This document shows positions 181 through 53,494 of a stretch of DNA of 64,000 nt, in pieces. Numbering within the stretch: the stretch's first letter is position 1; every line of letters starts with the position of its first letter. The translations under genes were made by a program, and so were the position numbers. The stretch comes from an uncultured Clostridia bacterium. GTDB taxonomy: Bacteria; Bacillota; Clostridia; TANB77; CAG-508. The notes below the pieces were generated by a model. That model saw only the letters and a program-made list of their open reading frames with translations, did not search any database and was not told the origin of the DNA. Location: NCBI GenBank assembly GCA_944387555.1, contig CALXFH010000001.1:82849-146848 (forward strand). Reading direction: 5' to 3'.

Positions 181-2205
181 TTAAACTCCTTGTTTTCTTT
201 TTCTCATTTCTACCAATTTATTTATATTTGTTTCAACAAACTCAAATTCTTTTTGTGTTGGAGTAATTTGTATAATTGCTGATTCAGAACCAACTTTTAA
301 CAAACCTTCTCCTTTAAAACATGTTACTAGGAAATTAGCTTCTCCTTCACTCAATTTAAAAACTTCTTTTAAGTATTCTATTTCAGATTTATCTTGTGCT
401 AAAAATAATTTTGTATCTGATGATGTTAAAACTGCTTGAGCCTCTGGTTTTTCATAAAAGTCTTGAAATCTTTGAGAAATAATTGCTAAGGAAACATTTC
501 TCTTTCTAGCACGTCTTGCCATAGTATTTAAGAAATCTACAGCTTCTGGATATGGTAATAACATCCATGCTTCATCAACAATAACTCTTTTCTTATTAGC
601 TTTTTTCCTATCTTCACTATTCTTTTTAACATACTTTTCCCAAATCCAAGAAAGCAATATCTGTTGTGCAAGTGGTCTTGCGAATCTTTCCTCAAGTTGA
701 GAAATATCAAGATTTATAAATGGCGCTCCTTCTAGCAACTCAAAAGTTGATTGTCCATCAAAGTATGCCATTTGGCCATCATATTCCCTAATATATTGTT
801 TCATAACTTTTAATAAATAACTATAATGGAAGCTATAATCACTATTCTTATTTTCTTGAGCTTTTCTTTCAATTCTTTTATACCAACTTCCAATTGTAGG
901 CATATCCTTTTTCTGTCTATAAAGCCTATCACCATTATTAATATTGCTACTTTCTCTATACAAGCTATCAGGATTACTTGTTATTCCTAACGCTGCATAT
1001 TCTTCTGCAACAGACTCTGCTATAATTTGCTTTGTCAATTCATTAACATCTGTGCTTCTTGTACTTCCTCTTGCCATTGTAAGTAAAGCCTGAGTAACGT
1101 CTTCTACCTTGTTTTCTATATTAACTACTGTTCTTTCTCTTCCTGTTATTTCATCTTTTACTTTTTCTGTTTCTACATCAAATAAATTTATAATTGTTTT
1201 TGAGTTAGGACTTAAAACCACATTTATTCCACCCAAACTTTCAGCAACAATTGAATATTCACCTTCTGCATCTAATGCTAAACTTTCAATTCCCATTAGT
1301 ACTGATGATCTAGAAATTAAAGTCTTCATTGTTACTGACTTTCCAGCTCCAGACTTAGCAAATATAACCATGTTATAATTTGTTAAAGATGGATGAAAGT
1401 TATCAAAAAGAATTGGTGTTCCTGTTTGTCTATTAAATCCTATTGGTACTCCAGTTGAATGTCCTACCTCAGATGTTGTAAAAGGAAATGTTGTAGCCAT
1501 TGATCTTCTATCAAAAGTATGGACTTTTCCTATCTTATTTTCCATAAGAGGTAAATTACTCTGGAAAGCTTCTTCTTGCATTGCCCAAGCACTTTTTATT
1601 TCTACTAAACTTTTTGACATCTCTGTTGCTAATAATTTTGTATTTTTCTCTAACTCGTCTAAATTATAAGAAAAAAGTGTTGCTACTACTGAAGCTTCAA
1701 ATAATTTATTATATCCAGCTGCTATTTCGTCTCTTAATTGTTCGGCTTCAAATCTTTTTTGCGTTAGATTACTTTGTCTATTTATATTTCCTTTATCAGC
1801 AGCTACAATTCTTTCCGTCTCCAATTCATTTATAACTCTGTTTAATTCATTTTGTGACCTTGACTCTGGTATCGGATTTATATAGACAGATGTGTTTATA
1901 TCCCCAAATAAATACATATCTCTGAATAATTCTGGAAATGTACACATTCTAGGTAATGTCGATACAAAGAAACTCCTTGTATATCTTTTGATATTTGATA
2001 TTATCTCTAACCTATCAACATTTGAAACATCTATTCCTGATGGAGCAATTATTTCTTTTATCGTAGTTCTTTTAAACAAATTACTCTGTTGTTCTTTGTG
2101 TTGATTTTCTTGTCTTTCTAGTTCTTGTCTTTTTTTGCTTTTCCTCATCTTTTGCCTCTCCTCCTTCTTTTGAATTTTCATTAAGAATACCATCAACGAC
2201 GTCAT
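181..2205 (-). CDS. VirB4/TcpF/TraE-family type IV secretion ATPase
   Basis: Walker A IFAKSGAGKSVT and Walker B VIVDEAWMLL (the DEAW signature of VirB4 ATPases). The true start is probably internal (M9 or M20), since the longest ORF overlaps the upstream gene by 125 nt. Confidence 0.8.
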   Translation of the reverse strand: MTSLMVFLMKIQKKEERQKMRKSKKRQELERQENQHKEQQSNLFKRTTIKEIIAPSGIDVSNVDRLEIISNIKRYTRSFFVSTLPRMCTFPELFRDMYLFGDINTSVYINPIPESRSQNELNRVINELETERIVAADKGNINRQSNLTQKRFEAEQLRDEIAAGYNKLFEASVVATLFSYNLDELEKNTKLLATEMSKSLVEIKSAWAMQEEAFQSNLPLMENKIGKVHTFDRRSMATTFPFTTSEVGHSTGVPIGFNRQTGTPILFDNFHPSLTNYNMVIFAKSGAGKSVTMKTLISRSSVLMGIESLALDAEGEYSIVAESLGGINVVLSPNSKTIINLFDVETEKVKDEITGRERTVVNIENKVEDVTQALLTMARGSTRSTDVNELTKQIIAESVAEEYAALGITSNPDSLYRESSNINNGDRLYRQKKDMPTIGSWYKRIERKAQENKNSDYSFHYSYLLKVMKQYIREYDGQMAYFDGQSTFELLEGAPFINLDISQLEERFARPLAQQILLSWIWEKYVKKNSEDRKKANKKRVIVDEAWMLLPYPEAVDFLNTMARRARKRNVSLAIISQRFQDFYEKPEAQAVLTSSDTKLFLAQDKSEIEYLKEVFKLSEGEANFLVTCFKGEGLLKVGSESAIIQITPTQKEFEFVETNINKLVEMRKRKQGV

Positions 2206-3352
2206 CCCCTAAGTATTCTCTATTTTCATTTAATATTAAATTTGCCATTTCGTCTGCTAATTCTTTTATAGAATTTTCTTTTTCTTCTACATTTTCTCTA
2301 TGTTTACTCCTGTATTTTTCAACTTTTTCAGTTACAATATCCATAGCTCTTTTTTGAATTTCTTTGTCAATTTCTTTTGTTCTCTTTTCTAACACGTCTG
2401 GAGCTGTACTATATAAAGCATCCACATTACCTTTCATAGCCTTTTTCAAATCAAATGTTTCTGATTCGTCCCTATTATAAGCCACATACAATAATTCTGC
2501 TAATTCTAAAGAATTTAAAATTTTTCCATTAACATTACAAGCAGATAAAGTTCTTATTATAGATTGAGCTCTAGTGTATAATTCTGAAAAAGCCATAGAT
2601 TGTATTTCATCTTTAGCAAAATCTTCTGTTCCGCTTTCATTTGGAGAATAAGCAATAATTATGTAATATTTTTTATTTAATATGTTTCTGTTTAAACTCA
2701 TCTTTTCCGTATCAGCTATAATATCCTTACCATACTCATATAAGTTTCTTGTTTTCGTAAGTTCATAAAAAGCTTTATCTCGTTGTTGTTTAGTATATTC
2801 TCCGCTTTCATTCATTTCCTGATATTGTTGTGTTTTCATATATAATTCTGATTCTATTTGATTAATTCTTTTTTTGTATCCATCTATACTTTTCTCTAGA
2901 TTAACGGTTCTTGTTTGTACATATATTTGTATAGGAAATCTTAATGTATTTAAGAATTGTACAAATCCTTCTTCAACACCAGTCTTTTCTACTCCAGACA
3001 TTAAATCATAGTTTATTCCTGCACATTCAATTGCCATTACATATCTTCTACCATTATGCTGAATTACCATATTATCTTCAATTTTATCAAAATCCATAAA
3101 ATCAAATATTGATTTTCTTTCTAACTGACTATGTTGAATTCTTTTATTGTTTTTACTTTTTATACCTTCATTTTTTTCATTTTGTGTATTATTTGTTTCT
3201 CTTCTATTATCTTTTCTTCTCAAAATAAAGTAAATAAGAACAAGTACAAACAATACTACAAAAGCTCCTATTAAAAGAAAGATTAACATTTGGGTTGTTT
3301 GATCCACATTACTCATCATCTTTTTCCTCCTTTGTACAATCATCATATACAT
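2081..3352 (-). CDS. Membrane-anchored protein with a VirB4 N-terminal-like domain (ConE/PrgJ N-domain-like), encoded as a separate ORF
   Basis: One N-terminal TM helix, then ...GRRYVMAIECAGINYDLMSGVEKTGVEEGFVQFLNTLRFPIQIYVQTR..., which matches the pattern of the N-terminal region of Gram-positive VirB4 proteins. A paralogous arrangement occurs at 28.0-32.0 kb. Confidence 0.45.
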   Translation of the reverse strand: MYMMIVQRRKKMMSNVDQTTQMLIFLLIGAFVVLFVLVLIYFILRRKDNRRETNNTQNEKNEGIKSKNNKRIQHSQLERKSIFDFMDFDKIEDNMVIQHNGRRYVMAIECAGINYDLMSGVEKTGVEEGFVQFLNTLRFPIQIYVQTRTVNLEKSIDGYKKRINQIESELYMKTQQYQEMNESGEYTKQQRDKAFYELTKTRNLYEYGKDIIADTEKMSLNRNILNKKYYIIIAYSPNESGTEDFAKDEIQSMAFSELYTRAQSIIRTLSACNVNGKILNSLELAELLYVAYNRDESETFDLKKAMKGNVDALYSTAPDVLEKRTKEIDKEIQKRAMDIVTEKVEKYRSKHRENVEEKENSIKELADEMANLILNENREYLGDDVVDGILNENSKEGGEAKDEEKQKKTRTRKTRKSTQRTTE

Positions 3353-3683
3353 AATATTTATATTTTTTTGACTTAAACTTTAATATTCTTTTTATTACAT
3401 CATCTATATTTTGCCCAGCATTTTTTCTTGTTATTTCGAATCTATTTAAATTTGGTACCTTAAAAGTTCCTATAATAAATCCAATTAAAGCAAAGAGCAC
3501 AACAAATAATATTCCTATTAAAGTCATTCCTAATAAATTAAACAAAATATAAAATAACCCTCCTGCCAAGGCTCCTACTCCTGAATATATCAAAGCCTTT
3601 GTAGAAAATATAAACAAAATTCTTCCTTCACCTTTAACATTTCTTGGTATATTATAAGTTCCCATTTTTTCACTCCTATCCAT
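3309..3683 (-). CDS. PrgI/VirB3-like small two-TM conjugation protein
   Basis: 124 aa with two adjacent hydrophobic helices and a basic C-terminal tail; lies immediately upstream of the VirB4-like module. Confidence 0.5.
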   Translation of the reverse strand: MDRSEKMGTYNIPRNVKGEGRILFIFSTKALIYSGVGALAGGLFYILFNLLGMTLIGILFVVLFALIGFIIGTFKVPNLNRFEITRKNAGQNIDDVIKRILKFKSKKYKYYVYDDCTKEEKDDE

Positions 3684-3874
3684 CTAATTATCCTTATTTA
3701 ATATTATAACAAAAAAAAAGACATTTTCCTATATTTTTATGCATTTTTTTTAATTTTAATAATAATGTAATATAATTGTAATCTTTTTGTTAAATTGTTT
3801 TGAATCAAAAAAAGAAAAACTTTGGAATAAATCCAAAGTTTTCCTTTTTATTAATTTTAGTTTTTCTATACTCC

Positions 3875-4243
3875 TTATGCTGTTACATTGCTTAAGAAAC
3901 TGTATAGTATTCCTGCAATTGCTGATGCTGCAAATACTAATGCTGCACCAATTATATATGGCATCATTGTCTTCTTGTATTCCGCTTTTTCTTCTGCACT
4001 TCCCATCATGTATTTTAAACCTAAAACAATTAAAACAATAACAGATGCAACTGTACCAACTATTGTTAATATTGTAATAAGTTGGTTACCTATATTTGTT
4101 ATTTTATCTGTTCCTTGAACAGTTTGTCCTGTTAATGTTGATGGATTAGTAACACCTGAAACAGCTGCAAAAACATTAGTTCCTATTGCTACTAAAATCA
4201 TAACTATTAGAAGTACAGATATTACTTTAGACATTTTTTTCAT
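3875..4243 (-). CDS. VirB2/TrbC-like pilin-like protein, paralog 1 of 4
   Basis: Signal peptide, variable region, then conserved helix-loop-helix LIVLGLKYMMGSAEEKAEYKKTMMPYIIGAALVFAASAIAG. Confidence 0.55.
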   Translation of the reverse strand: MKKMSKVISVLLIVMILVAIGTNVFAAVSGVTNPSTLTGQTVQGTDKITNIGNQLITILTIVGTVASVIVLIVLGLKYMMGSAEEKAEYKKTMMPYIIGAALVFAASAIAGILYSFLSNVTA

Positions 4244-4380
4244 ATTTTTTTCCTCCTTTTTTATAAAAATATATATTCAAAATTCTTATATATTTTTATA
4301 TTTATATAAGAAATTTTAAAAACTTTGTAAAACTCTACTTACTATATTATAACAAATTTTTTAATATAAAGCAACTTTTA

Positions 4381-4734
4381 CTATCCCAAATTAATTGAAA
4401 CGTTATAAATTATTCCTGCAATTGCTGATGCTGCAAATACTAATAATGCACCAATTACATATGGAAACAATGTTTTTTTGTATTCTGCTTTTTCTTCTAC
4501 ACTTCCCATCATATACTTTAATCCTAATAAAATCAAAACTACAACTGAAACAACTGAACCCACAGTTGTTAATATTGTTATAACACTATTTCCTATTCCT
4601 TGTAAATTTGAATTTGTAACTTGTGTTCCTGTAAGATCTGTAACTGAAAAAGCATAAATATTTTCTACATTTAAAATAATCATAAAAATCAAAATTGTCA
4701 ATACTATTAATAATCTTTTTTGATTTTTTTTCAT
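4381..4734 (-). CDS. VirB2/TrbC-like pilin-like protein, paralog 2
   Basis: Conserved C-terminal module LILLGLKYMMGSVEEKAEYKKTLFPYVIGALLVFAASAIAG; the N-terminal half is divergent. Confidence 0.55.
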   Translation of the reverse strand: MKKNQKRLLIVLTILIFMIILNVENIYAFSVTDLTGTQVTNSNLQGIGNSVITILTTVGSVVSVVVLILLGLKYMMGSVEEKAEYKKTLFPYVIGALLVFAASAIAGIIYNVSINLG

Positions 4735-4749
4735 TATATCACCTCAACT

Positions 4750-5148
4750 TTATACTAAACCATTTGTTATGCTATTAATAATTCCTAATATGTTTGTAAT
4801 AGCAAATACAAGAACTGCTCCTATTATATAGGGAACCATTGTCTTCTTATATTCAGCTCTTTCTTCTAGACTTCCTGTCATATATTTTATACCTAGGACA
4901 ATTAAAACAATAACAGATGCAAAACTACCAACAAATTGAACAATACCTATTATTCTATTTCCAATTTCACTTACTTTATCCGCTTGACTCATTGTTCCTG
5001 GTTCATATACACTTGGATTATCTCTAGGGTCTGTTACCATTGTCTTATTAGTTGTTGTACTTGACCTTCCAGCAATAACATTATTAGATAACAGCATAAC
5101 TAATACTAAAAAAATTAAAAAAGCAAAAACTATCTTTCTTTTTTTCAT
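4750..5148 (-). CDS. VirB2/TrbC-like pilin-like protein, paralog 3
   Basis: LIVLGIKYMTGSLEERAEYKKTMVPYIIGAVLVFA; signal peptide plus a divergent ectodomain. Confidence 0.55.
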   Translation of the reverse strand: MKKRKIVFAFLIFLVLVMLLSNNVIAGRSSTTTNKTMVTDPRDNPSVYEPGTMSQADKVSEIGNRIIGIVQFVGSFASVIVLIVLGIKYMTGSLEERAEYKKTMVPYIIGAVLVFAITNILGIINSITNGLV

Positions 5149-5165
5149 TGTATCACCTACTCAAA

Positions 5166-5681
5166 TTAAAATCCTTGTAATAACACCATAACTAGTTTCC
5201 AAATTCCAAAAGCTCCAAATATAATAACACAACCAACCACGTATGGTATTAACTTTTCTTTTACTTGTGCCTGTCCATCTGCAGAAGACACCATAAACTC
5301 TATTCCCAATACAACACCAGCAGTAACTGCTACTACCAAACCAATTGCTAAGAGTATATTATAAATCAAATCAATTGTTTTTTGTAAGTTATCTTGTGAT
5401 ATTGTATTATTTGTATCTGCATTGTCTATAAAGTTATCAGCACCAGATATTACTTCATCTATACTTTGTTCCTTAAAATTATTGCCTGAACCTCCACTAA
5501 AACTTCCACTTGTTCTTCCATTATCACTTTCACTTGAAGCCGCAATAGTTATTAAATGAACTGGACCTTCATTTTCTTGTTCGTCATTATCCAAGACATT
5601 ACTATTTGCATAACTACAATTAACCAATATAGAAAATAAAATCATAAAAGTTGTAATTATCTTTAAATATATTTTTTTCAT
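5166..5681 (-). CDS. VirB2/TrbC-like pilin-like protein, paralog 4, with a long Ser/Gly/Asn-rich ectodomain
   Basis: Signal peptide ending ..SYA; low-complexity stretch SESDNGRTSGSFSGGSGNNF; C-terminal helix-loop-helix GVVLGIEFMVSSADGQAQVKEKLIPYVVGCVIIFGAF, which is more divergent than in paralogs 1-3. Confidence 0.45.
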   Translation of the reverse strand: MKKIYLKIITTFMILFSILVNCSYANSNVLDNDEQENEGPVHLITIAASSESDNGRTSGSFSGGSGNNFKEQSIDEVISGADNFIDNADTNNTISQDNLQKTIDLIYNILLAIGLVVAVTAGVVLGIEFMVSSADGQAQVKEKLIPYVVGCVIIFGAFGIWKLVMVLLQGF

Positions 5682-5903
5682 ATCTTTTCTCCATTTATAA
5701 AAATAATTATTCTATTTAATTATACACTATTTTAAGTTTTTTTTCAATTTTTTGCATATTTTTATCAATAATTTAATAAAAATGTAATATTTTCGTAATA
5801 TTTATTTTCCTATTTTTCAAAAATTAAAAGATTAGAAATCAAAAAATCCAATCATTGAAAATTGGATTTTTTGACAAGATATCTTACAAGATGTCTTTTT
5901 CTT

Positions 5904-6279: not shown

Positions 6280-6366
6280 TGGCGTAGGTGAGAGGGTTCG
6301 AACCTCCGCGCCGATTGCTCGACCTAGCAGTTTAGCAAACTGCCCCCTTCACCACTTGGGTACACC
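6280..6366 (-). tRNA. tRNA-Ser (anticodon GCT) with a long variable arm
   Basis: Reverse complement reads GGTGTACCCAAGTGGTGAAGG...CAGTTTGCTAAACTG...GGTTCGAACCC...CGCCA; cloverleaf drawn by hand. Confidence 0.85.
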
Positions 6367-6427
6367 TACATATTATTTATTTTAATAAAAGTTAGATACA
6401 CTTTATATATCTAACTCTTAAATTATA

Positions 6428-6519
<92 letters not shown>

Positions 6520-18329: not shown

Positions 18330-18560
18330 AAGATAAAGTTTTCCACAGTTTTTTAGACACTTATCCACAATTTTAAAATTTTTTCCACAATCTTATTGAC
18401 TTCTTATACTTAAATTTGTTATTATGTGTAAAGTAAAAAAATAAGTGAGTTTTTTATTGATATTACTTGAATTTTTGTTCGTACAAATTCCTAGATTTTT
18501 TACAAAAACATTACAAAGTTATCAACAGTTGTGGATAACTTTGTGGATAACTTTTTAGAA
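18330..18560. promoter_or_regulatory. oriC DnaA-box cluster upstream of dnaA
   Basis: TTATCCACA at 18361; TTTTCCACA at ~18339 and ~18381; TTATCAACA at ~18519; TGTGGATAA at 18531 and 18542. Confidence 0.8.
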
Positions 18561-18573
18561 AGGATGATTTTAA

Positions 18574-28039: not shown

Positions 28040-28643
28040 TCGGAGGTGATAAAAATAAAACAATTAACAGTTCAAGAATGGTTACCTATAGAAAAAATTT
28101 ATAATGATCGGATTTGTTAAATTAAAAAATAATAAAATAATTAAAATTTTAAAAGTTAATCCAATTAATTATAATCTAAAGTCAGATTTAGAAAAAGAGT
28201 CTATTTTAAATTCTTATAAGATTTTTTTAAAAACTTGTAATTTTAATATCCAAATTTTAATTCAAAGTAGTAAAGAAGATTTAACTCATCATATTAAAAA
28301 TATCCAAAAAAATATTTCTAAAAAAGAAAATAAATATTTAGAGAAAATTGCAGAAAATTATATTAATTATATTCAACAAATTAATTTAACAAGAAAATCA
28401 TCATCTAAAGATTTTTATATTATTATATCAGATACAATTAATAAAAAAATGAATATTTTTGAATCAGAAGAAATAATTAAAAATGATTTAAAAGATAAAT
28501 ATTTTAAAGTCAAAGAATGTTTAGCTCGTTCCGGAAATTTAGTTTCTGAATTATCTAATTCAAAAGAAGTTGAAGATTTATTTTTCTCTTTATTAAATAC
28601 CAGAAAAAGTTTAAATAATAAATTAATTAAAATAAATAAATAA
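28040..28643 (+). pseudogene. Frameshifted, TM-less paralog of the VirB4 N-terminal-like domain protein
   Basis: The upstream frame encodes ..KQLTVQEWLPIEKIYNDRIC*. ORF 28104..28643 continues in another frame with MIGFVKLKNNKIIKILKVNPINYNLKS..NIQILIQS, matching 2081..3352 (..RRYVMAIECAGINYDL..PIQIYVQT). Confidence 0.5.
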
Positions 28644-28644
28644 A

Positions 28645-28860
28645 AATAATTAATTAAAAAATAATTAATAAAAAAATAATTAATTAAAAAATAATTAATT
28701 AAAAAATAATTAATTAAAAAATAATTAATTAAAAAATAATTAATTTAAAATAAATTAATTTAAAATTAATTAATTAAAAATAAATTAATAAAAAAATAAT
28801 TAATTAAAAATAATTAATAAAAAAATAAATTAATTTAAAATAATTAATAAAAAATTAATG
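28645..28860. repeat. Microsatellite, ~13 units of a 16-bp repeat, AAAATAATTAATTAAA
   Basis: Read directly from the sequence. Confidence 0.9.
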
Positions 28861-29214
28861 ATTAAAAAAATAAAAAAATAAAAATATTCATTAAGAAAAT
28901 TAAAAGATTTTAAAATAGAAATGAGTTACAAAATAAAATAAAAATTATAAGTAGTTGGTTAAAATGAAAAGATAAAATACAAAGATAAAAAATCCAAATA
29001 AAAGTAAAAAAATATTATAAAGAAATAGGTTAAAAATGTTAGGCGTTTAAAAGAAAGCGGTAATGAATAAAATTAATTACCATTCAAGCAGAATTAGAAA
29101 AATAAGTTTACATATAAGAAAATAATAAATAGAAAAATGTTGTTATATTTTTAGGTTTTATTAAAATAAAGTTTAAAGAATTTAAAATATATTTATATTT
29201 AATTTATATAAATA

Positions 29215-29530
29215 TTAAATAAAAAATAAATTAATTTAAAAAATAATTAATTTAAAAAACAATTAATTAAAAAATAATTAATTTAAAAAACAATTAATTA
29301 AAAAATAATTAATTAAAAAATAATTAATTAAAAAATAATTAATTTAAAAAACAATTAATTAAAAAATAATTAATTAAAAATAAATCAATTTAAAAAATAA
29401 TTAATTAAAAAGTAATTAATTAAAAAATAATTAATTAAAAATAAATTAATTTAAAAAATAATTAATTAAAAAGTAATTAATTAAAAAATAATTGATTAAA
29501 AATAAATTAATTAAAAAATAATTAATAAAA
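29215..29530. repeat. Microsatellite, ~19 units of a 16-17-bp repeat, AAAA(A/C)AATTAATT(A/T)AA; a shorter related block lies at 29985-30120
   Basis: Read directly from the sequence. Confidence 0.9.
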
Positions 29531-30165
29531 TAAATAATTAATTACAAAATAATTATTTAAATAAAAATAATTTTTTTATAAAAATAAAAAAAATCTAATT
29601 AAAGAAAAATAATCAATTAAATAATTGTATATAAAGAAAAAATTAAAAATAAAAAGGAGGTTGCATAAATTTTGAAAAGTTTAAAAGAAATTATAAAAGA
29701 AACTTTAAAAAATATAAAAAAGGAATTAAAAGAATTACTAAAAAGGCTTAGGCATTAAAAGAAAAAGAAGAATTGATAAAATGAAAGACAAATTTAAAGT
29801 GAGTAGCTACAAAGGTTTACATATATAAAAATAAAATTCTTAATGCTATTTAAATAAATAAGTTTGTTGTTTCGATTTAGTATTTCAAAAAAATAAAATT
29901 TCATAAAATTAAAAAGAAAAAATAAAATATTTAATTTTAAATATTAATAAAAAATAATCAATTAGAAATAAATTAATTAAAGATAATTAACAAAAAAATA
30001 ATAAAATAAAAAATAAAATAAATTAAAAAATAAATTAATTAAAAAACAAATTAATTAAAAAATAAATTAATTAAAAAAATTAATTAAATAAAAATAATAA
30101 AATAAAAAAAATTAATTAACAAAAATGAATAATTAATTTTATTAAATAGAAAAAGGAGGAGAAAA

Positions 30166-32034
30166 TTGTTAAAAGAAAAAATAGAAAATATATTTAATAA
30201 AAATAAAAAAGAAATTAATGATAATTTTTTTGAAGGGACTATATATAAAAAAGATGAAATATCACCAGCATATATAGATATGCAAAATCCTAAATATTTA
30301 GAAATAGATAATTTATATTATGGAGGATTAATAGTAGTAGATTATTATAGAGAACAGACAGATATCATTTTAAAAACATTAATAGAAACTAATATTAATA
30401 TGAATATTTCTGTTTTTTATGAAAAACAAGATCCGTTTAAAACTATAAAAGATTTAACATATCATATAGGTAATGTAGGAGTAGAATTAAAAGAAAGTAA
30501 TCAAAACAGAGAGGATATAGATATAGCAGCTTTTACATACAATGATGCTAAATATATAAGAAAAGAAATACAAGTAAATAATGAAGATATTTATTATTTA
30601 TATATTTATATTAGTATATATGCAGAGAATGTAAAAGAATTAGAATACTATTTAAATAAAATAGAAGGTATTGCACAAAGCAAAGGCATGCAAACAAGAA
30701 GAGCAAATTTTAGACAAGAAGAATTATTTTTATCTTGCTTACCTATAATGGAAAATAATAATACAATAAAAGATGCAGCGAGAAGAAACGTCTTAACTTC
30801 TGGTTTACTTGCAACATACCCATTTATATCTTCTACTATATTTGACCAAGATGGAATCTTTATTGGTACTAATATATATAATAATTCTTTAGTTTTTATA
30901 GACAGATATAATAATCAAAAATATAAAAATGCTAATATATGTATATTTGGAACTAGTGGAGCTGGTAAATCATTTTATACTAAATTATTAATATTAAGAT
31001 ATAAACTATTAGGGATTAGTCAATATATAATAGACCCAGAAAGAGAGTATGACCATTTATGTGAAAGTTTAAAAGGAACACAAATTAAAATAGGACCTAA
31101 TTCAGATACATATATTAATGTTTTGGAAATAAGAAAGGAAAGTTTGGAAGAAGGAGAAAGCGGATATTTAGCTACTAAAATAGGAAAGCTTATAGGTTTC
31201 TTTAATCTAATATTTGGGGAATTAAATGAAGAAGAGAAGGCTTTAATAGAAGAGAAACTAATAGATACATATAAAATGAAGAATATTAATTTTGATGATA
31301 AAAGCTTATATAAAGAAATAAGAACAAATAAAAAGATAAAAAAGGTATTTAAAGATCCACAAGATATGCCAATACTAGAAGATATATATAATATATTAGG
31401 AAAAGATGAGAGAACTAAAAAATTTCAAATAAAACTTATTCCTTTTGTTAAGGGGTCTATGAAATTCTTTAATAATATATCGAATATAAAATTAGATAAT
31501 GAATTAATAGTTGCAGATATATATGATTTAGGAGAAGAGAATTTAAAATATGGTATGTATTTATTTACAGAAATATTTTGGGACAAGATTAAAGAAAACA
31601 GAAATGAAAAGAAAGCAATATACTTAGATGAAATATGGAGATTAATAGGTGTAACATCTAATAAAGAAGTTGCAAGCTTTATATATAAAATATTTAAGAC
31701 TATTAGAAAATATGGTGGTAGTGGAGTAGCAATAACACAAGATATATCAGATATATTTAGTTTGGATAATGGTACATATGGAAAAAGTATTTTAAATAAT
31801 TCTAGTATTAAAACATTTTTTGCATTAGAAGAGGAAAATATAAAAATACTTTCAGATTTTACTAATTTATCAGAAAAAGAAAAAGTAGAAATTAAATCTT
31901 TAAAAAGGGGAGAGTGTTTAATGTTTGTTGGTGATGAACATATATTAACTAAAATAGAATGTTCTGAATTAGAACAAGAAATATTAGAGGGAGGAAAGAA
32001 TAAGAATAATGAAAAAAATAATATTAGCAATTGA
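30166..32034 (+). CDS. VirB4-like ATPase paralog with an N/K-rich biased composition
   Basis: Walker A CIFGTSGAGKSFYT; Walker B KKAIYLDEIWRLIG (DE-x-W); the N-terminal region parallels 181..2205; RBS AAAGGAGGAG. Confidence 0.65.
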   Translation: MLKEKIENIFNKNKKEINDNFFEGTIYKKDEISPAYIDMQNPKYLEIDNLYYGGLIVVDYYREQTDIILKTLIETNINMNISVFYEKQDPFKTIKDLTYHIGNVGVELKESNQNREDIDIAAFTYNDAKYIRKEIQVNNEDIYYLYIYISIYAENVKELEYYLNKIEGIAQSKGMQTRRANFRQEELFLSCLPIMENNNTIKDAARRNVLTSGLLATYPFISSTIFDQDGIFIGTNIYNNSLVFIDRYNNQKYKNANICIFGTSGAGKSFYTKLLILRYKLLGISQYIIDPEREYDHLCESLKGTQIKIGPNSDTYINVLEIRKESLEEGESGYLATKIGKLIGFFNLIFGELNEEEKALIEEKLIDTYKMKNINFDDKSLYKEIRTNKKIKKVFKDPQDMPILEDIYNILGKDERTKKFQIKLIPFVKGSMKFFNNISNIKLDNELIVADIYDLGEENLKYGMYLFTEIFWDKIKENRNEKKAIYLDEIWRLIGVTSNKEVASFIYKIFKTIRKYGGSGVAITQDISDIFSLDNGTYGKSILNNSSIKTFFALEEENIKILSDFTNLSEKEKVEIKSLKRGECLMFVGDEHILTKIECSELEQEILEGGKNKNNEKNNISN

Positions 32035-50162: not shown

Positions 50163-50465
50163 TTATCTTATTTTTTTCTTCCATTTTTTACTGTAAAAAT
50201 AAATCTTTTGCCTAAATATAAACTTAAATAGATATCTAATTACAACAACAATATTTTCACCATGAAAGCCTGAAAAACTAAGTAATAATAAAGGAAAACA
50301 AAGTGTAATAAAAACAAAAACTTTAATATCAATTGAATTAAAAATTAAATTAACTAAAATAAGAACAATTACATACCAAACGACATTAACAAAAGCAGTG
50401 GTATAGTCAATAATACCTAAAATTTTATTTTTAAAGTGATAATTTTGTGGAAAAATAAATTTCAA
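50163..50465 (-). CDS. Small two-TM membrane protein (possibly VirB3/PrgI-like)
   Basis: 100 aa, two hydrophobic helices, basic tail. Confidence 0.3.
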   Translation of the reverse strand: MKFIFPQNYHFKNKILGIIDYTTAFVNVVWYVIVLILVNLIFNSIDIKVFVFITLCFPLLLLSFSGFHGENIVVVIRYLFKFIFRQKIYFYSKKWKKKIR

Positions 50466-50512
50466 GATAAAGCCTCCTTGTAATAATAATATTTAGTTTA
50501 AATTTTCATGTT

Positions 50513-51391
50513 TTAAGATCTAAAACTAGTTAAAGATTTCACAGATTGTGAAACTTCTGTGGAAATTCCACCTATAAATTGCCTTACAAATGTATTTGCT
50601 CTAATTAATGCATAAACACCACCTACGTATACAAATTTATTAAATAAATTAGTCTCTGAATAATCTAAAGAAAATAAAATTAATAAAACTAAAGATACAA
50701 TAATTTGTATAAATAACAATGAAAATAAATTCTTAAGCCATGATTTAAAGAACCAAGATGTAGAATCCAGATTAAGAGAAATAAATGCAAAAGGAGCAAG
50801 AAGGACAAAAACTTTAATCATAATATATCTAAGTGAATAAGAAAATACTAAACTTAAAAGTGAAAGACTAAGAGTACTTTTAATTAAGCCATCAACAGAG
50901 AATATATTTAAAGAATTAGTATCAACAGCTACATTTGTATTTATTGTATTAATTAATTCAGAAAAAGAAATTTCTTTACCAAAGAGATTTTCACCAAGGC
51001 TTCTTATAGCTAAAGATATATTAGAATTTAAATCTAAAATCATTTGCACAATAAAGAAAGAGAAATTCATACAAATACCAAATAAAACAATTTTTATAAT
51101 AAAACTAAAAGGAGAATCAACTTTATGGTATGTAATATGTGACATTAAATATTTAAATGCATAATAAATAATAAAACCTAAAAGAAGTGAGTTTGCAATA
51201 AGAAGAATACCATTAGAAGTTGATGTTCCGAATAGTTTTTCAAAATTTTGGTCATTTAGAATATCTGAATTAACAAAAGTTATTTGGTCTAAAACAGAAT
51301 ATAAATTATTATCAATAGATGCAAATAGTGTTTCAAAAATACTATTAATTGTATCTATAATTGTTTGTGTAATATTAGTTGAACTTTCCAA
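50513..51391 (-). CDS. Polytopic membrane protein (possibly VirB6/TrbL-like)
   Basis: 292 aa with ~6 TM helices; lies between the pilin-like and T4CP-like genes. Confidence 0.35.
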   Translation of the reverse strand: MESSTNITQTIIDTINSIFETLFASIDNNLYSVLDQITFVNSDILNDQNFEKLFGTSTSNGILLIANSLLLGFIIYYAFKYLMSHITYHKVDSPFSFIIKIVLFGICMNFSFFIVQMILDLNSNISLAIRSLGENLFGKEISFSELINTINTNVAVDTNSLNIFSVDGLIKSTLSLSLLSLVFSYSLRYIMIKVFVLLAPFAFISLNLDSTSWFFKSWLKNLFSLLFIQIIVSLVLLILFSLDYSETNLFNKFVYVGGVYALIRANTFVRQFIGGISTEVSQSVKSLTSFRS

Positions 51392-51401: not shown

Positions 51402-51743
51402 CTATCCTACTAATGATTTTATAGCAGAAAGAATTAAATCAATTGCAAGTATAAAAGCATAAGAAAAAAGTGAACCTTTTATAATTTTTTTACCAGTTCT
51501 TATTTTTTCTTCATCACCAAAGCTAAATTTTTTCATAAAGATACCACTACCAACAGCAACTGCAGCTGCAGGTGTTGCAATTTTTAAAAGCCAGCTTTCA
51601 ATTGATTCGAAAGCAGATGTAATTTTAGAAACTATTTCTGGGTCACCCCAAGCAAAGCAAGAACTTCCAATTGTAAATACAAAAATTCCTGCAAATATAG
51701 TTATAAAAAACATATAAAATATTTTCTTTTTCAAATAAATCAT
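51402..51743 (-). CDS. Fifth VirB2/TrbC-like pilin-like protein
   Basis: Signal/TM ..GSSCFAWG, then helix AAAVAVGSGIFMKKFSFGDEEKIRTGKKIIKGSLFSYAFILAI; same hydrophobic / charged-loop (xEEK..KK) / hydrophobic pattern as 3875..5148. Confidence 0.45.
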   Translation of the reverse strand: MIYLKKKIFYMFFITIFAGIFVFTIGSSCFAWGDPEIVSKITSAFESIESWLLKIATPAAAVAVGSGIFMKKFSFGDEEKIRTGKKIIKGSLFSYAFILAIDLILSAIKSLVG

Positions 51744-51775: not shown

Positions 51776-53494
51776 CTATAAACTGTTATTCTTAAAATGA
51801 GGAAACATTTTTAATTTTTTTGGAGGATAAATTATATTTCCATCAGATAAAAATGTAAGGGCAGTGAATGTTTCTAGGTTTTGAGTGAAAAATTTAGACT
51901 CATAAATATAATCATTTTGTACATATGTACTGTAACTTTCTGAAATATTGGAATTTTGGGAATTTAAAGTATTTGTTATATAACTAAAATTAGTTTCTTT
52001 TGCACTTTCTGAAATACTCTTTGAAATCTTTTCTTTATCTTCTTTACCAAGTTGTTTTTGAGCTTCTTCGATTGTAAAAATATCATCTGTTCTAAACCAA
52101 ATCTTATTAATTGAATTTTGGATAATAACTTTAACTGTAGCTTCATCTTTTAAAGTGGTTTTTAAAGAAGAATAACTTTGTGTGCTTAAAATATTAATGC
52201 ATTTTGCTTCTCTACTTAAAGAGAAAAATTCTCCATCTGTTTTGCTTGCAAATTTATCATACTCATCACAAATAAATGCAGATGTTCTTGACATGTTTTT
52301 AGCTAAATGGCTCATTACTTCTGTTTGAAAGTCTAATTTTAAATATGTTGCAATAATTTTAGAAAGAGTATCATATTCAAAAATATTCATATTTAAAACA
52401 ACAATTTTTCCTTTAGATAAAACTTCATCAAAACCTGTAAAAGTTAATTTGTTTTTAGGAGAACAGAATGTATTTTTAACATCATAATCTGAAACAAAAG
52501 TACCAGTAATTCTGGTTATTTCTGAAATTAAAATTCCTTTGGTTCTACTATCTAAGTTATTAAATTCTTTTTCAAAGAAATCTAGACTTGCATTTAATTC
52601 ATAAATTTGTCTATTGTTAAATTTAGAAGAAATAAATAAATTTTTAAGAACAGAAATTTTTTCTTTATAATAATTAGGAATAGTAACTAATTTATGAAGC
52701 TCTGTAAAAGTAACATATCCATTATTATATAACCTACATAATTTGATACATTCTGTCAGAACTTCTTCTGCCTTGTCTAGCCAGTAAGACTCTGTATTGT
52801 TTTCTGAAAATAATAGTAAAATGGTTTTAAGCCTACTAGCTAGTACCTGTGCTTTTAAAATTGGTTTATGTAATGGATTATAAAAAACATTAGAACCTAG
52901 TTCAAGAACAATTAAATCATTTTCAAGATTATAATTTTTACAATATTCTTTAACTTGATTATAGTAATTTCCTTTTACATCTAATATTAACATACCTATT
53001 TTTTTATCAGGATTTAAAGAGTTAAATTCTAGTAATTGTCTAGTAAAAGGATACATAGCACTTGATGTTTTACCAGAGCCTATTGTCCCAGTAATTAGAA
53101 AGTTTTGGTATAAACCACTTTCTGGAATAGAAATAATATTATCTTTTTCATCTTTTCCAATTAATAAAGATAAAATTTTTTTAGAATTTTTAGATTTTAG
53201 TTTTGTATTTTTATTAATAATGTTAATTTTATCATTATTTTCTTTAATTTTAGATTTTATATTTTTAAATTCTTGAATGATTTTTAAAATTATTCTTGTA
53301 TAAATAAAATGACCTATTAGAAAAAAAGATATTGATGATATAAAAATATATGTAATTTTAATAGTTTTCCATAACTCTGGATTTTTAGAACAAATATCAA
53401 ATGGATGTATGCCATAAGGAATTATAACTTCAGTTGCTGTATAAATAGGATTAAAGATTTTAAAACTTAAAAAACTAAAGACAAGTAAAAACAC
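51776..53494 (-). CDS. Type IV coupling protein-like ATPase (VirD4/TraG/TcpA family)
   Basis: Two N-terminal TM helices; Walker A ITGTIGSGKTSS; acidic box AFICDEYDKF; 572 aa. Confidence 0.5.
   Translation of the reverse strand: MFLLVFSFLSFKIFNPIYTATEVIIPYGIHPFDICSKNPELWKTIKITYIFISSISFFLIGHFIYTRIILKIIQEFKNIKSKIKENNDKINIINKNTKLKSKNSKKILSLLIGKDEKDNIISIPESGLYQNFLITGTIGSGKTSSAMYPFTRQLLEFNSLNPDKKIGMLILDVKGNYYNQVKEYCKNYNLENDLIVLELGSNVFYNPLHKPILKAQVLASRLKTILLLFSENNTESYWLDKAEEVLTECIKLCRLYNNGYVTFTELHKLVTIPNYYKEKISVLKNLFISSKFNNRQIYELNASLDFFEKEFNNLDSRTKGILISEITRITGTFVSDYDVKNTFCSPKNKLTFTGFDEVLSKGKIVVLNMNIFEYDTLSKIIATYLKLDFQTEVMSHLAKNMSRTSAFICDEYDKFASKTDGEFFSLSREAKCINILSTQSYSSLKTTLKDEATVKVIIQNSINKIWFRTDDIFTIEEAQKQLGKEDKEKISKSISESAKETNFSYITNTLNSQNSNISESYSTYVQNDYIYESKFFTQNLETFTALTFLSDGNIIYPPKKLKMFPHFKNNSL

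What the first reader, a model, noticed from the sequence alone, without database searches (positions are those of the whole stretch)
3875..5681. Four tandem paralogous VirB2/TrbC-like pilin genes with a conserved helix-loop-helix and hypervariable ectodomains
The four adjacent minus-strand ORFs all have a signal peptide, a divergent 30-90-aa region, and a strongly conserved C-terminal module: hydrophobic helix, then K-Y-M-(M/T)-G-S-x-E-E-(K/R)-A-E-Y-K-K-T, then a hydrophobic helix. This is the VirB2/TrbC pilin topology (and is TcpD-like). They lie directly upstream of PrgI/VirB3-like and VirB4-like genes. The fourth copy carries a long Ser/Gly/Asn-rich insert. A fifth, more divergent member (51402..51743) sits in the 48-53 kb locus. 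Multiple tandem pilin paralogs whose only divergence is in the exposed region suggest antigenic or receptor-specificity diversification of a T4SS surface structure.
Basis: partly seen in the sequence, partly recalled or inferred. Interest (0 to 1): 0.6.

Follow-up and report, generated by a model that had tools for sequence, protein, structure and literature searches.

The report
Tandem T4SS pilin genes, gut Clostridia
Four neighbouring small genes encode VirB2/TrbC-type pilins of a type IV secretion system built into the chromosome, next to the replication origin, of an uncultured gut Clostridia lineage; until now reviews had credited this arrangement only to Patescibacteria among single-membrane bacteria.

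Summary
The four minus-strand ORFs (5681-5166, 5148-4750, 4734-4381, 4243-3875) each have a signal peptide, a variable hydrophilic spacer and a two-helix hairpin with a charged loop. All four score above Pfam's gathering threshold for TrbC/VirB2 (PF04956).

They lie directly upstream of PrgI/VirB3, a TrsD/TraC-like protein and VirB4. Relatives show that a pilin-domain-bearing VirB6-like protein, a 308-aa protein and a large cell-wall hydrolase follow.

The cluster is chromosomal, about 13 kb from dnaA. VirB4 is as conserved across 80 species-level MAGs as MnmG and ParA (median 84% vs 85-86%), whereas the pilins diverge fast (median 49%). Arrays hold 1-5 copies in 51 complete loci, with up to 6 hits in a shorter locus. 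ORF lengths are 90-439 aa.

dN/dS is about 0.5-0.6 in the spacer and 0.15-0.24 in the hairpin. That indicates relaxed constraint plus indels, not demonstrated positive selection. No relaxase or integrase was found in what was scanned.

The closest analogue is the Patescibacteria origin-proximal T4SS with VirB2 arrays. VirB2-like PrgF in Gram-positive plasmids was reported in December 2025. Verdict: real, correctly identified, a new member of a recently recognised kind.

The parts
5166..5681 (-). pA: pilin-like paralogue, 171 aa, first gene of the array. It has a signal peptide, a 71-aa Ser/Gly/Asn/Asp-rich spacer and a divergent two-helix hairpin.
   Evidence: ORF. Pfam TrbC 28.9 bits (cut-off 27.9) and PF18895 26.3 bits. 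Topology. Homologues are 100-266 aa with low-complexity spacers.
4750..5148 (-). pB: pilin paralogue, 132 aa, with a 31-aa spacer.
   Evidence: Pfam TrbC 40.7 and PF18895 34.7 bits..
4381..4734 (-). pC: pilin paralogue, 117 aa, with a 14-aa spacer.
   Evidence: Pfam TrbC 44.6 and PF18895 33.0 bits..
3875..4243 (-). pD: pilin paralogue, 122 aa, the last gene and the one next to PrgI. It is the best-conserved array copy in the four nearest relatives and is inferred to be the major subunit.
   Evidence: Pfam TrbC 47.2 and PF18895 40.8 bits. 1980 homologues. AF2 model shows helices 2-26, 45-80 and 83-121, pLDDT 75. The copy in this position is 90-146 aa, median 122, in 51 loci.
5719..5747 (-). Best sigma-70-like promoter match upstream of pA (TTGAAA-17-TATAAT, 11 of 12).
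   Evidence: Consensus match only; such sites are as frequent as in shuffled AT-rich sequence.
3816..3842 (.). 11-bp hairpin followed on the minus strand by a T-run: terminator-like site after pD.
   Evidence: and direct reading.
4244..4380 (-). 137-nt gap between pC and pD, the only sizeable intergenic gap in the array. It may hold an internal promoter for pD.
   Evidence: Weak promoter-like match at 4370-4341. A comparable gap precedes the last copy in relatives, by the coordinates. The function is inferred.
3309..3665 (-). PrgI/VirB3-like membrane protein.
   Evidence: Pfam PrgI 32.6 bits (cut-off 27). Gene call of 118 aa in L001.
2081..3316 (-). TrsD/TraC-like protein (411 aa): N-terminal TM helix plus a domain related to the N-terminal part of VirB4.
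   Evidence: PF26593 TraC-like in precomputed annotation. NCBIfam Mbov_0397 VirB4 positions 92-398, E 0.001.
181..2079 (-). VirB4-like ATPase (632 aa).
   Evidence: Pfam P-loop_TraG, AAA_10 and DUF87. NCBIfam CD1110-family VirB4 at 202 bits, below the cut-off of 325. 82-96% identical in 80 species-level MAGs.
6280..6519 (-). Two tRNA-Ser genes (gct, tga) immediately upstream of the array. They form the boundary with the parB-side housekeeping genes.
   Evidence: The pair is conserved in 9 of 12 related loci tested.
51402..51743 (-). pE: fifth pilin-like gene (113 aa) in the second locus. It has the same topology and is very conserved across species.
   Evidence: PF18895 25.3 bits, below the cut-off of 26.6. 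5769 homologues, the best 120 of them 73-98% identical. Alignment. hhalign against the pD group is not significant.
51776..53494 (-). VirD4-like coupling protein (572 aa).
   Evidence: Pfam TrwB_AAD_bind 37.9 and TraG-D_C 27.5 bits. The same neighbourhood occurs in L094-L096.
50163..51391 (-). 292-aa multi-TM protein (possible VirB6/TrbL-like) and a 100-aa membrane protein (possible VirB3-like).
   Evidence: Only weak hits: TrbL E 0.032 and Mbov_0397 N-terminus E 0.017. No BLASTP similarity to the locus-1 counterparts. Gene order is conserved in relatives.
28104..32034 (+). Third T4SS-related locus: a TrsD-like 179-aa paralogue (28104-28643) and a second VirB4-like ATPase (30166-32034).
   Evidence: 27% identity over 527 aa, E 2e-39; E 2e-8.

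Best explanation
The four genes encode VirB2/TrbC-family pilin subunits of a chromosomally fixed, vertically inherited, monoderm (MPF-FATA-like) type IV secretion system in an uncultured, low-GC gut Clostridia lineage.

**Proposed mechanism.** The steps are inferred from the family unless marked otherwise.
1. Each precursor is exported by Sec, and its leader is cut after the small-x-small site.
2. The mature protein sits in the membrane as a two-helix hairpin. The charged loop (EEKAEYKK) faces the cytoplasm and the variable N-terminal spacer faces outward.
3. The PrgI/VirB3, TrsD-like and VirB4 ATPase module and the VirB6-like platform extract the hairpins and stack them into a short pilus or conduit through the cell wall. 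The loop lines the lumen and the N-terminal spacers lie on the outer surface. The large hydrolase encoded downstream opens the peptidoglycan.
4. pD is the major subunit. It is next to PrgI, preceded by its own gap, followed by a terminator, and is the best-conserved array copy in the four nearest relatives.
5. pA-pC are accessory subunits whose spacers of different length and composition decorate or cap the structure.

**What is shown here.** Family membership, topology, gene linkage, chromosomal and origin-proximal position, housekeeping-like conservation of VirB4, fast evolution and length variation of the pilins, and the absence of a relaxase or integrase from the proteins scanned.

**What is inferred.** Assembly into a pilus, the major/minor roles, and a function other than plasmid conjugation (cell-cell contact or macromolecule exchange, as proposed for the Patescibacteria system).
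For: **Family and topology.** Pfam TrbC scores are above the gathering score for all four genes, and PF18895 for three. Precomputed annotation agrees, and one source names a homologue 'type IV secretory pathway VirB2 component (pilin)'. All four show a signal peptide followed by two hydrophobic helices and a charged loop, and the AF2 model is a helical hairpin. The best solved-structure match is the R388 pilin TrwL, full-length and in register, though weak (E 0.12).

**Gene context.** PrgI, TrsD/TraC-like and VirB4 follow the array. Relatives then show a VirB6-like protein that itself carries a PF18895 hairpin and a TrbL_4 region, a 308-aa protein, and an NlpC/P60 plus lysozyme/glucosaminidase hydrolase. 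A VirD4-like coupling protein lies in a second locus.

**Chromosomal position and inheritance.**
- DnaA is at 18531-19931 and RnpA at 17573-17923, and GC skew changes sign there.
- mnmG-rsmG-parA-parB, and in most of these DUF4446, lie upstream in about 31 related loci; tRNA-Ser x2 lay upstream in 9 of 12 loci checked.
- Where that synteny is absent, the neighbours are still housekeeping genes.
- Median identities across species are VirB4 84%, MnmG 85% and ParA 86%, against PrgI 59%, TrsD-like 50%, pD 49% and VirB6-like 33%.
- At least 502 species-level genomes encode a VirB4 relative.

**Array variation.** Array size in 51 complete loci is 1 copy (2 loci), 3 (35), 4 (13) and 5 (1). ORFs are 90-439 aa, and the copy next to PrgI has a median of 122 aa. 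Pooled dN/dS is 0.15-0.24 in the hairpin and 0.51-0.62 in the spacer.

**Conjugation genes.** No relaxase or integrase family was hit among the proteins scanned.

**Literature.** VirB2-like PrgF is essential in pCF10 and is modelled as a pilus on VirB6 (bioRxiv 10.64898/2025.12.18.695078). Patescibacteria have a chromosomal T4SS near dnaA with TrsD, PrgI, VirB4, VirB6, arrays of 2-11 VirB2-like genes and no relaxase (PMC12102498).
Against: - No pilus has been seen, and there is no expression or assembly evidence.
- Foldseek against the PDB gave no significant match, so the fold evidence is not diagnostic; a helical hairpin is generic.
- The major/minor assignment rests only on position, length and conservation. 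Promoter-like sites are no more frequent than in shuffled sequence.
- The relaxase check covers only part of the ORFs of a 64-kb window plus about 10 kb in relatives, not the genome. A VirD4-like coupling protein is present, which fits DNA transfer.
- The nearest plasmid-borne VirB4s (42% identity, C. botulinum) belong to plasmid T4SS loci with the same gene order.
Confidence: 0.55

Rival explanations
1. The paralogues are interchangeable alternative major pilins maintained for antigenic variation or receptor (host or partner) specificity, as proposed for Bartonella Trw trwL copies and Anaplasma VirB2 paralogues.
For: - Divergence and indels are concentrated in the surface-exposed N-terminal spacer.
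- Copy number and spacer length vary between species, with 1-5 copies in complete loci, up to 6 hits in a shorter locus, and ORFs of 90-439 aa.
- Pilins evolve much faster than VirB4.
- The Patescibacteria paper offers the same idea for its arrays (PMC12102498).
Against: - Pooled dN/dS in the spacer is 0.5-0.6, not above 1.
- All copies lie in one co-oriented array with no switch, inversion or silent-cassette structure.
- pA-type and pD-type copies recur as distinct groups across species, which suggests distinct roles.
- No VirB5-like partner was detected among the proteins profiled, and a coupling protein is present, unlike Trw.
Confidence: 0.2
2. The cluster is an integrated conjugative element, or its remnant, that still moves DNA by conjugation. 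On this reading the pilins are ordinary conjugative VirB2/PrgF-type subunits.
For: - A VirD4-like coupling protein is present.
- tRNA-Ser genes abut the array.
- The same gene order occurs on C. botulinum and C. beijerinckii plasmids, with VirB4 41-42% identical.
- VirB2-like proteins are now reported in most Gram-positive conjugative plasmids (bioRxiv 10.64898/2025.12.18.695078).
Against: - No relaxase, integrase or recombinase hit was found among the proteins scanned.
- Synteny with the parAB side of the origin region is conserved in about 31 loci, and the tRNA pair in 9 of 12 loci checked.
- VirB4 is as conserved as MnmG and ParA across 80 species.
- Base composition matches the flanks.
- T4SS genes are dispersed over three loci around the origin.
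Confidence: 0.12
3. The small proteins are not pilus subunits. Instead they are membrane-resident accessory or anchor proteins that use a VirB2-like hairpin merely as a membrane anchor to display variable low-complexity stalks on the cell surface.
For: - Relatives carry the same hairpin behind long N-terminal regions; ORFs reach 439 aa.
- The pA-type regions inspected (up to 266 aa) are mostly low-complexity.
- The VirB6-like protein itself contains a pilin-like hairpin, which shows the module is used as a membrane element.
- The highly conserved pE next to the possible VirB6 could be the real channel subunit.
Against: - pB, pC and pD have short spacers (14-31 aa) and are of canonical pilin size.
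- The loop is almost invariant across orthologues, as expected for a lumen-lining or ATPase-contacting element rather than a passive anchor.
- The Pfam TrbC match covers the whole mature protein.
Confidence: 0.1

Closest known systems
Patescibacteria (CPR) chromosomal T4SS with VirB2-like pilin arrays (Southlakia epibionticum, Nanosynbacter lyticus; PMC12102498; reviewed in PMC12857230)
   Same: - Monoderm MPF-FATA-like core of PrgI/VirB3, TrsD-like, VirB4 and VirB6-like proteins.
- Tandem array of sequence-divergent VirB2-like genes matching PF04956/PF18895.
- Chromosomal position close to dnaA.
- Coupling protein encoded away from virB4.
- No relaxase nearby.
   Different: - The host is a Clostridia (Bacillota) lineage, not Patescibacteria.
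- The nearest named VirB4 relatives are Firmicutes such as Heliorestis and Peptostreptococcaceae, and membership of the Patescibacteria VirB4 clade was not tested.
[quoted passage not shown]
- TrsD-like and VirB4-like genes are duplicated in a further locus.
- Essentiality and lifestyle are unknown here.
PrgF (VirB2-like) of pCF10 and its counterparts on Gram-positive conjugative plasmids (bioRxiv 10.64898/2025.12.18.695078)
   Same: - Small two-TM protein with a short charged loop, encoded next to VirB3, VirB4 and VirB6 genes of a monoderm T4SS.
- A single protein of the same topology (138 aa, PF18895 19 bits) sits in the equivalent position on C. botulinum plasmids whose VirB4 is 42% identical.
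   Different: - There are four tandem paralogues rather than one functional copy.
- Each has a cleavable signal peptide and an N-terminal spacer.
- Sequence similarity to TrbC/VirB2 is detectable by Pfam, whereas PrgF is described as having almost none.
- The locus is chromosomal, with no relaxase found in what was scanned.
TrbC/VirB2 pilins of Gram-negative T4SS (RP4 TrbC, Ti VirB2, R388 TrwL)
   Same: - Pfam family membership.
- A leader peptide followed by a two-helix hairpin with a charged loop.
- Position upstream of virB3-virB4.
- The best PDB sequence match is TrwL.
   Different: - The cell envelope is monoderm.
- No VirB5, VirB7, VirB9 or VirB10 was detected among the proteins profiled in the locus.
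- Cyclisation and its peptidase were not assessed.
- The structural match is not significant (E 0.12; Foldseek found nothing).
Amplified VirB2 paralogues in Bartonella Trw and Anaplasma/Ehrlichia T4SS
   Same: Several tandem VirB2 paralogues that differ mainly in the exposed part, within a non-conjugative chromosomal T4SS.
   Different: - Those are diderm systems. Trw co-amplifies a VirB5 homologue and lacks a coupling protein.
- Here no VirB5-like protein was found and a VirD4-like protein is present.
- No positive selection was detected.
Mycoplasma ICE 'pilin-like conjugal transfer protein' (NCBIfam NF045849, Mbov_0395 family) with Mbov_0396/0397
   Same: The best NCBIfam hits for the pilins, the VirB6-like protein, the TrsD-like protein and VirB4 all come from this one mycoplasma ICE gene set. 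This points to a shared monoderm T4SS ancestry.
   Different: - All scores are below the curated cut-offs (32.3 against 40 for the pilin).
- The mycoplasma elements are mobile ICEs and carry a single copy.

Membership tests
TrbC/VirB2 pilin family (Pfam PF04956; related PF18895 T4SS_pilin) | Profile HMM score at or above the curated gathering score | tested here: met
   PF04956 scores are 47.2, 44.6, 40.7 and 28.9 bits against a cut-off of 27.9 for pD, pC, pB and pA. PF18895 scores are 40.8, 33.0, 34.7 and 26.3 against 26.6. pE does not pass (25.3 bits on PF18895 only).
TrbC/VirB2 pilin family (Pfam PF04956; related PF18895 T4SS_pilin) | Precursor with an N-terminal leader removed on export | tested here: met
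   Prediction from sequence only. Each protein has a Lys-rich n-region, a hydrophobic stretch of about 20 aa, and SYA|N, VIA|G, IYA|F or VFA|A. Cleavage itself was not observed.
TrbC/VirB2 pilin family (Pfam PF04956; related PF18895 T4SS_pilin) | Mature protein is two hydrophobic helices joined by a short charged loop | tested here: met
   Hydropathy profile. The AF2 model has helices 45-80 and 83-121 at pLDDT 79-90.
TrbC/VirB2 pilin family (Pfam PF04956; related PF18895 T4SS_pilin) | Encoded with VirB3, VirB4 and VirB6 homologues | tested here: met
   PrgI, TrsD-like and VirB4 lie directly downstream. A VirB6-like protein and a hydrolase follow in L001 and relatives.
TrbC/VirB2 pilin family (Pfam PF04956; related PF18895 T4SS_pilin) | Similarity to solved pilin structures | tested here: inconclusive
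   A profile search of PDB sequences gives TrwL (8s6h) as the best hit, at E 0.12. Foldseek against the PDB has no hit below E 1.
TrbC/VirB2 pilin family (Pfam PF04956; related PF18895 T4SS_pilin) | Polymerises into a T4SS pilus and is required for T4SS function | not testable with these tools
   Needs multimer modelling, microscopy or genetics; the organism is uncultured.
Patescibacteria-type domesticated monoderm T4SS with pilin arrays | Core of PrgI/VirB3, TrsD-like, VirB4 and VirB6-like plus a tandem array of divergent VirB2-like genes | tested here: met
   Arrays hold 1-5 genes in 51 complete related loci, with up to 6 hits in a shorter locus.
Patescibacteria-type domesticated monoderm T4SS with pilin arrays | Chromosomal and close to the replication origin | tested here: met
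   dnaA is at 18531-19931 and the skew switches there. The array is about 13 kb away. parAB synteny holds in about 31 loci. In some species the cluster lies elsewhere in the chromosome.
Patescibacteria-type domesticated monoderm T4SS with pilin arrays | No cognate relaxase | tested here: inconclusive
   No relaxase or integrase family was hit among the proteins scanned from the window, L001, L017 and the second locus. Not every ORF was scanned, and the rest of the genome was not available.
Patescibacteria-type domesticated monoderm T4SS with pilin arrays | VirB4 belongs to the Patescibacteria VirB4 clade | not tested
   No Patescibacteria sequences were in hand. Outside the lineage the closest representatives are about 41% identical. 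The only ones that carry an organism name are Firmicutes.
Patescibacteria-type domesticated monoderm T4SS with pilin arrays | Essential for a host-dependent (epibiotic) lifestyle | not testable with these tools
   No culture or genetics is available.
Bartonella Trw / Anaplasma-type VirB2 amplification for adhesion or antigenic variation | Positive or diversifying selection on the exposed part of the paralogues | tested here: not met
   Pooled Nei-Gojobori dN/dS of the spacer is 0.51-0.62 in four close orthologue comparisons. Samples are small and no site models were run.
Bartonella Trw / Anaplasma-type VirB2 amplification for adhesion or antigenic variation | Co-amplified VirB5-like tip or adhesin subunit, and no coupling protein (Trw) | tested here: not met
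   No VirB5-like hit in any profile search. A VirD4-like protein is present.
TcpD of Clostridium perfringens pCW3 | Sequence or profile similarity to TcpD | not tested
   No TcpD profile or sequence was available. No Tcp-family hit appeared in Pfam or NCBIfam.

The most novel reading that the evidence does not exclude
A large clade of uncultured, low-GC gut Clostridia carries the same kind of domesticated, origin-flanking T4SS with VirB2 pilin arrays that current reviews describe as unique to Patescibacteria among monoderms. At least 502 species-level genomes encode the VirB4.

If this is true, one of two things follows:
- These Clostridia use the system, as Patescibacteria are thought to, for an obligate cell-to-cell dependency, which could explain why they resist cultivation.
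- A Firmicutes lineage of this type is the evolutionary source of the Patescibacteria T4SS together with its pilin array.

Two further features of this window also mark Patescibacteria: a complete DGR and a highly AT-rich genome region.
Probability: 0.2. Interest if true: 0.8.

Novelty: new member of a known kind. Interest (0 to 1): 0.55.

Why it matters
A December 2025 review still states that VirB2 pilins are absent from Gram-positive T4SSs except in Patescibacteria, and that Patescibacteria are unique among monoderms in their potential to build conjugative-type pili. A December 2025 preprint overturns the first statement for plasmids.

This locus extends both results. It shows Pfam-detectable TrbC/VirB2 pilins, in tandem arrays, in a chromosomal, vertically inherited T4SS of a widespread uncultured gut Clostridia clade. 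The ATPase of that system is conserved like a housekeeping gene.

This gives T4SS researchers a second, independent lineage in which to ask what a non-conjugative monoderm T4SS pilus does. It gives gut-microbiome researchers a conserved, abundant, surface-exposed and fast-evolving protein set in organisms that have not been cultured.

Tried and rejected
- **Foldseek of the AF2 pilin model against the PDB.** There were no significant hits. A helical hairpin is not discriminating, so fold evidence was dropped.
- **tblastn of pD against 72,556 plasmids.** No hit. The pilin is too divergent for pairwise search, and the plasmid counterpart was found only through VirB4 context.
- **My own pilin HMM on the C. 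botulinum 138-aa protein.** It failed at the bias filter. Pfam PF18895 gives 19 bits.
- **hhalign of pD-type against pE-type alignments.** Not significant, so pE is not claimed as a proven paralogue.
- **Test for positive selection.** dN/dS stayed below 1, so diversifying selection is not claimed.
- **Naming the organism beyond NCBI titles ('uncultured Clostridia bacterium', 'Clostridium sp. CAG:440').** This failed. A GTDB placement in TANB77/CAG-508 is only my recollection and is not used.
- **Identifying Patescibacteria among the nearest VirB4 relatives.** Only Firmicutes names were recovered from the ten clusters looked up.
- **ICE hypothesis.** Considered and down-weighted for lack of a relaxase or integrase hit and because of conserved synteny.
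- **Holin or immunity-protein hypothesis.** No profile supports it.
- **Structure prediction of a long-ectodomain homologue.** Not run, because the retrieved long homologues are mostly low-complexity.


Full report
**1. What is there**

The window is a low-GC (about 26%) bacterial chromosome segment that spans the replication origin.
- The GC skew changes sign between 16 and 20 kb.
- RnpA is at 17573-17923 and DnaA at 18531-19931, followed by DnaN, RecF and GyrB.
- GyrA is at 45232-47694.
- On the other side lie mnmE, mnmG, rsmG, parA, parB and a DUF4446 gene.

Directly after two tRNA-Ser genes (6280-6519) come the four minus-strand ORFs of the finding. They sit exactly at the stated coordinates: 5681-5166 (pA, 171 aa), 5148-4750 (pB, 132 aa), 4734-4381 (pC, 117 aa) and 4243-3875 (pD, 122 aa). 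Each has a ribosome-binding site.

**2. Is the repeat real?**

Yes. A 191-nt module recurs three times at 82% and 71% DNA identity.

All four proteins share one layout:
- a Lys-rich N-terminus, a hydrophobic segment and a small-x-small site (SYA|N, VIA|G, IYA|F, VFA|A);
- a hydrophilic spacer of 71, 31, 14 and 20 aa;
- a 75-76-aa module of two hydrophobic helices joined by a charged loop.

Module identity is 68% for pD-pC, 62% for pD-pB and 56% for pC-pB. It is only 25-32% between pA and the rest. The statement that divergence is confined to the exposed region therefore holds for pB-pD but not for pA.

**3. Family**

| Gene | PF04956 TrbC/VirB2 (cut-off 27.9) | PF18895 T4SS_pilin (cut-off 26.6) |
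|---|---|---|
| pD | 47.2 | 40.8 |
| pC | 44.6 | 33.0 |
| pB | 40.7 | 34.7 |
| pA | 28.9 | 26.3 |

- All four pass the curated threshold for TrbC/VirB2, and three of them also pass for T4SS_pilin.
- NCBIfam's best hit is the mycoplasma ICE 'pilin-like conjugal transfer protein' family, below its cut-off.
- PHROGs gives nothing relevant, and no holin or immunity family appears anywhere.
- An AF2 model of pD, built from a 31-sequence alignment, has pLDDT 75. It shows a leader helix and a long helical hairpin.
- A profile search of PDB sequences puts the R388 pilin TrwL first, aligned over both helices, but only at E 0.12.
- Foldseek finds nothing significant.

Family membership thus rests on the HMMs, the topology and the gene context, not on fold search.

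**4. Context**

Downstream on the same strand are:
- a PrgI/VirB3-like gene (3665-3309);
- a 411-aa TrsD/TraC-like protein (3316-2081), which resembles the N-terminal part of mycoplasma VirB4;
- a VirB4-like ATPase (2079-181).

The window ends there. Metagenome contigs carrying the identical pilin (L001, L002) show the continuation:
- a 758-aa VirB6-like protein that itself contains a PF18895 hairpin (29.4 bits) and a TrbL_4 region;
- a 308-aa protein;
- a hydrolase of more than 900 aa with NlpC/P60, beta-lactamase-like and lysozyme domains.

A close relative (L017) has the same order. It is followed by a 433-aa and a 154-aa protein with no family hit and a WXG100-domain protein, with no relaxase hit among the proteins scanned.

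A second locus lies on the far side of the origin and ends against gyrA. It holds a VirD4-like coupling protein (53494-51776), the fifth pilin-like gene pE (51743-51402), a 292-aa multi-TM protein and a 100-aa membrane protein. The evidence that the last two are VirB6-like and VirB3-like is only weak. A DnaB_2 protein and a split DnaI-like loader follow. This gene order is conserved in relatives.

A third locus (28.1-33.3 kb) carries a TrsD-like paralogue and a second VirB4-like ATPase.

**5. The fifth copy**

pE has the same topology, and some of its homologues carry a precomputed PF18895 hit. It scores 25.3 bits, just under the cut-off. A profile-profile comparison with the pD group is not significant.

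It is also much more conserved than the array genes. The mature part is nearly invariant in a 17-sequence alignment. It may be the core, PrgF-like subunit, but that is speculation.

**6. Relatives**

A scan of one genome per species found at least 502 genomes encoding a VirB4 relative. The best 80 are 82-96% identical. Nearly all are titled uncultured Clostridia, Clostridium sp., Eubacteriales or Bacillota MAGs, and one is 'Clostridium sp. CAG:440'. Their isolate names point to gut samples from humans and several animals.

Median identity to the window's proteins across these loci:

| Protein | Median identity |
|---|---|
| ParA | 86% |
| MnmG | 85% |
| VirB4 | 84% |
| ParB | 80.5% |
| PrgI | 59% |
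| TrsD-like | 50% |
| pD | 49% |
| VirB6-like | 33% |
| 308-aa protein | 32% |

- The ATPase therefore evolves like a core housekeeping gene, and the envelope-exposed parts evolve fast.
- mnmG-rsmG-parA-parB, and in most of these DUF4446, precede the array in about 31 loci. The tRNA-Ser pair did so in 9 of 12 loci checked.
- Where that synteny is missing, the neighbours are other housekeeping genes, with no recognisable integrase among them.
- This pattern fits vertical inheritance of a domesticated system, not a recently integrated element.
- Outside the lineage, the nearest 50%-identity cluster representatives are only about 41% identical. The few that carry organism names are Firmicutes.
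- The nearest plasmid VirB4s are 41-42% identical, on C. botulinum and C. beijerinckii plasmids. The C. botulinum locus examined has the same gene order, with a single 138-aa protein of identical topology in the pilin position, annotated 'hypothetical'.

**7. Variation of the array**

In 51 species-level loci with a complete upstream region, the array has 1 copy (2 loci), 3 (35), 4 (13) or 5 (1). One shorter locus has 6 hits.
- ORF lengths run from 90 to 439 aa.
- The copy next to PrgI is always short (median 122 aa).
- The first copy is the most variable in length.
- The long forms tend to be of the pA type.
- Retrieved pA-type homologues of up to 266 aa have mostly low-complexity Ser/Gly/Asn/Thr-rich spacers, with a conserved juxtamembrane motif.
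- No Pfam domain was found in the long N-terminal regions.

Against four close relatives, pooled dN/dS is 0.15-0.24 in the hairpin and 0.51-0.62 in the spacer, which also accumulates indels. This indicates relaxed constraint on an exposed, probably disordered segment. It does not demonstrate diversifying selection.

**8. Mechanism**

By analogy with characterised VirB2 pilins and with PrgF of pCF10 (bioRxiv 10.64898/2025.12.18.695078), the most likely reading is as follows.
- The four proteins are Sec-exported, leader-processed membrane hairpins.
- The VirB3, TrsD-like and VirB4 module and a VirB6-like platform polymerise them into a short pilus or conduit through the cell wall.
- The almost invariant charged loop lines the lumen, and the variable spacers lie on the outside.

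The position of pD next to PrgI, the 137-nt gap before it, the terminator-like hairpin after it, its short spacer and its higher conservation in the nearest relatives suggest that it is the major subunit. pA-pC would then be accessory subunits. These assignments are inferences.

No relaxase or integrase hit was found in what was scanned. Combined with the housekeeping-like conservation, this argues for a function other than plasmid conjugation. A VirD4-like protein is present, however, and the rest of the genome was not examined.

**9. Comparison with what is known**

The closest described system is the Patescibacteria T4SS. It has TrsD, PrgI, VirB4 and VirB6, arrays of 2-11 VirB2-like genes, a position near dnaA, a coupling protein encoded elsewhere and no relaxase. 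In Southlakia it is essential for epibiotic growth (PMC12102498; PMC12857230).

The December 2025 review states that VirB2 is otherwise not found in Gram-positive T4SSs and that Patescibacteria are unique among monoderms in this respect (PMC12857230). A December 2025 preprint reports VirB2-like proteins in most Gram-positive conjugative plasmids.

I found no paper describing this Clostridia system. The 'TANB77 pilin' paper concerns a Tad pilus.

Public pipelines already tag these proteins with PF04956/PF18895, and one source names a homologue VirB2. The gene-level annotation is therefore not new.

The finding is best rated as a new member, in a new phylum, of a recently recognised kind.

**10. 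Verdict**

- The pilin and T4SS interpretation is supported.
- The antigenic or receptor-diversification idea is plausible but not shown.
- The paralogy of the fifth copy is unproven.
- Interest is moderate to fairly high, because of the parallel with Patescibacteria and the breadth and abundance of the host clade.

Noticed in passing
window 28104-33289 (+): A third T4SS-related locus lies between gyrB and gyrA. It holds a 179-aa TrsD/TraC-like paralogue (E 2e-8 to the 2081-3352 product) and a second VirB4-like ATPase of 622 aa (27% identical to the first over 527 aa, E 2e-39). An Asn/Lys-rich ParA/CbiA-like ORF of 426 aa follows.
   Followed up: partly
window 39996-43786 (+): A complete diversity-generating retroelement. 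Its parts are a 459-aa target ORF with the variable repeat at 41266-41363, bAvd (42058-42468), a reverse transcriptase (42446-43462) and the template repeat at 43538-43635. The template repeat is 83% identical to the variable repeat, and the mismatches I inspected fall at template adenines. Rfam RT-14 RNA lies at 43631-43786.
   Followed up: partly
window ~21400-24300, 28600-30150, 32200-37050: Multi-kilobase intergenic stretches of 7-11% GC made of degenerate A/T-rich low-complexity repeats. They lie between housekeeping and T4SS-related genes near the origin. There are no Ns in the window.
   Followed up: partly
window 48049-49069 (-); also L094 12596-13598, L095, L096: The DnaI/IstB-like helicase loader next to the DnaB_2 protein is split into two ORFs. 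In the window they overlap, and the frameshift falls inside the Walker A motif (GYAG / YGKT). Relatives from independent assemblies show the same 200-aa plus 133-151-aa split, so it is not an assembly error. It could be a conserved split or a programmed frameshift.
   Followed up: partly
L001 14414-16690; L003 14255-16885; L007 14082-17555; L093 10884-13445: The large VirB6-like membrane protein after VirB4 contains its own pilin-like hairpin (PF18895, 29.4 bits in L001). The plasmid homologue in C. botulinum has one too.
   Followed up: partly
L017 5355-6263 and 20364-20993: In one close relative, an AbiEii/DUF6922 toxin-antitoxin pair is inserted between the tRNA-Ser genes and the pilin array. 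A WXG100-domain protein of 209 aa lies downstream of the hydrolase.
   Followed up: no
L068 4461-7293; L022 4554-6808; L088 4346-6773: Some species carry one or two pilin-module proteins of 310-439 aa at the head of the array. Pfam found no domain in the N-terminal regions of the three tested (L068 and L022).
   Followed up: partly
window 6586-8091 (-): A 501-aa polytopic membrane protein with no family hit lies between DUF4446 and the tRNA-Ser genes. It was detected in only 9 relatives, at 35-42% identity.
   Followed up: no
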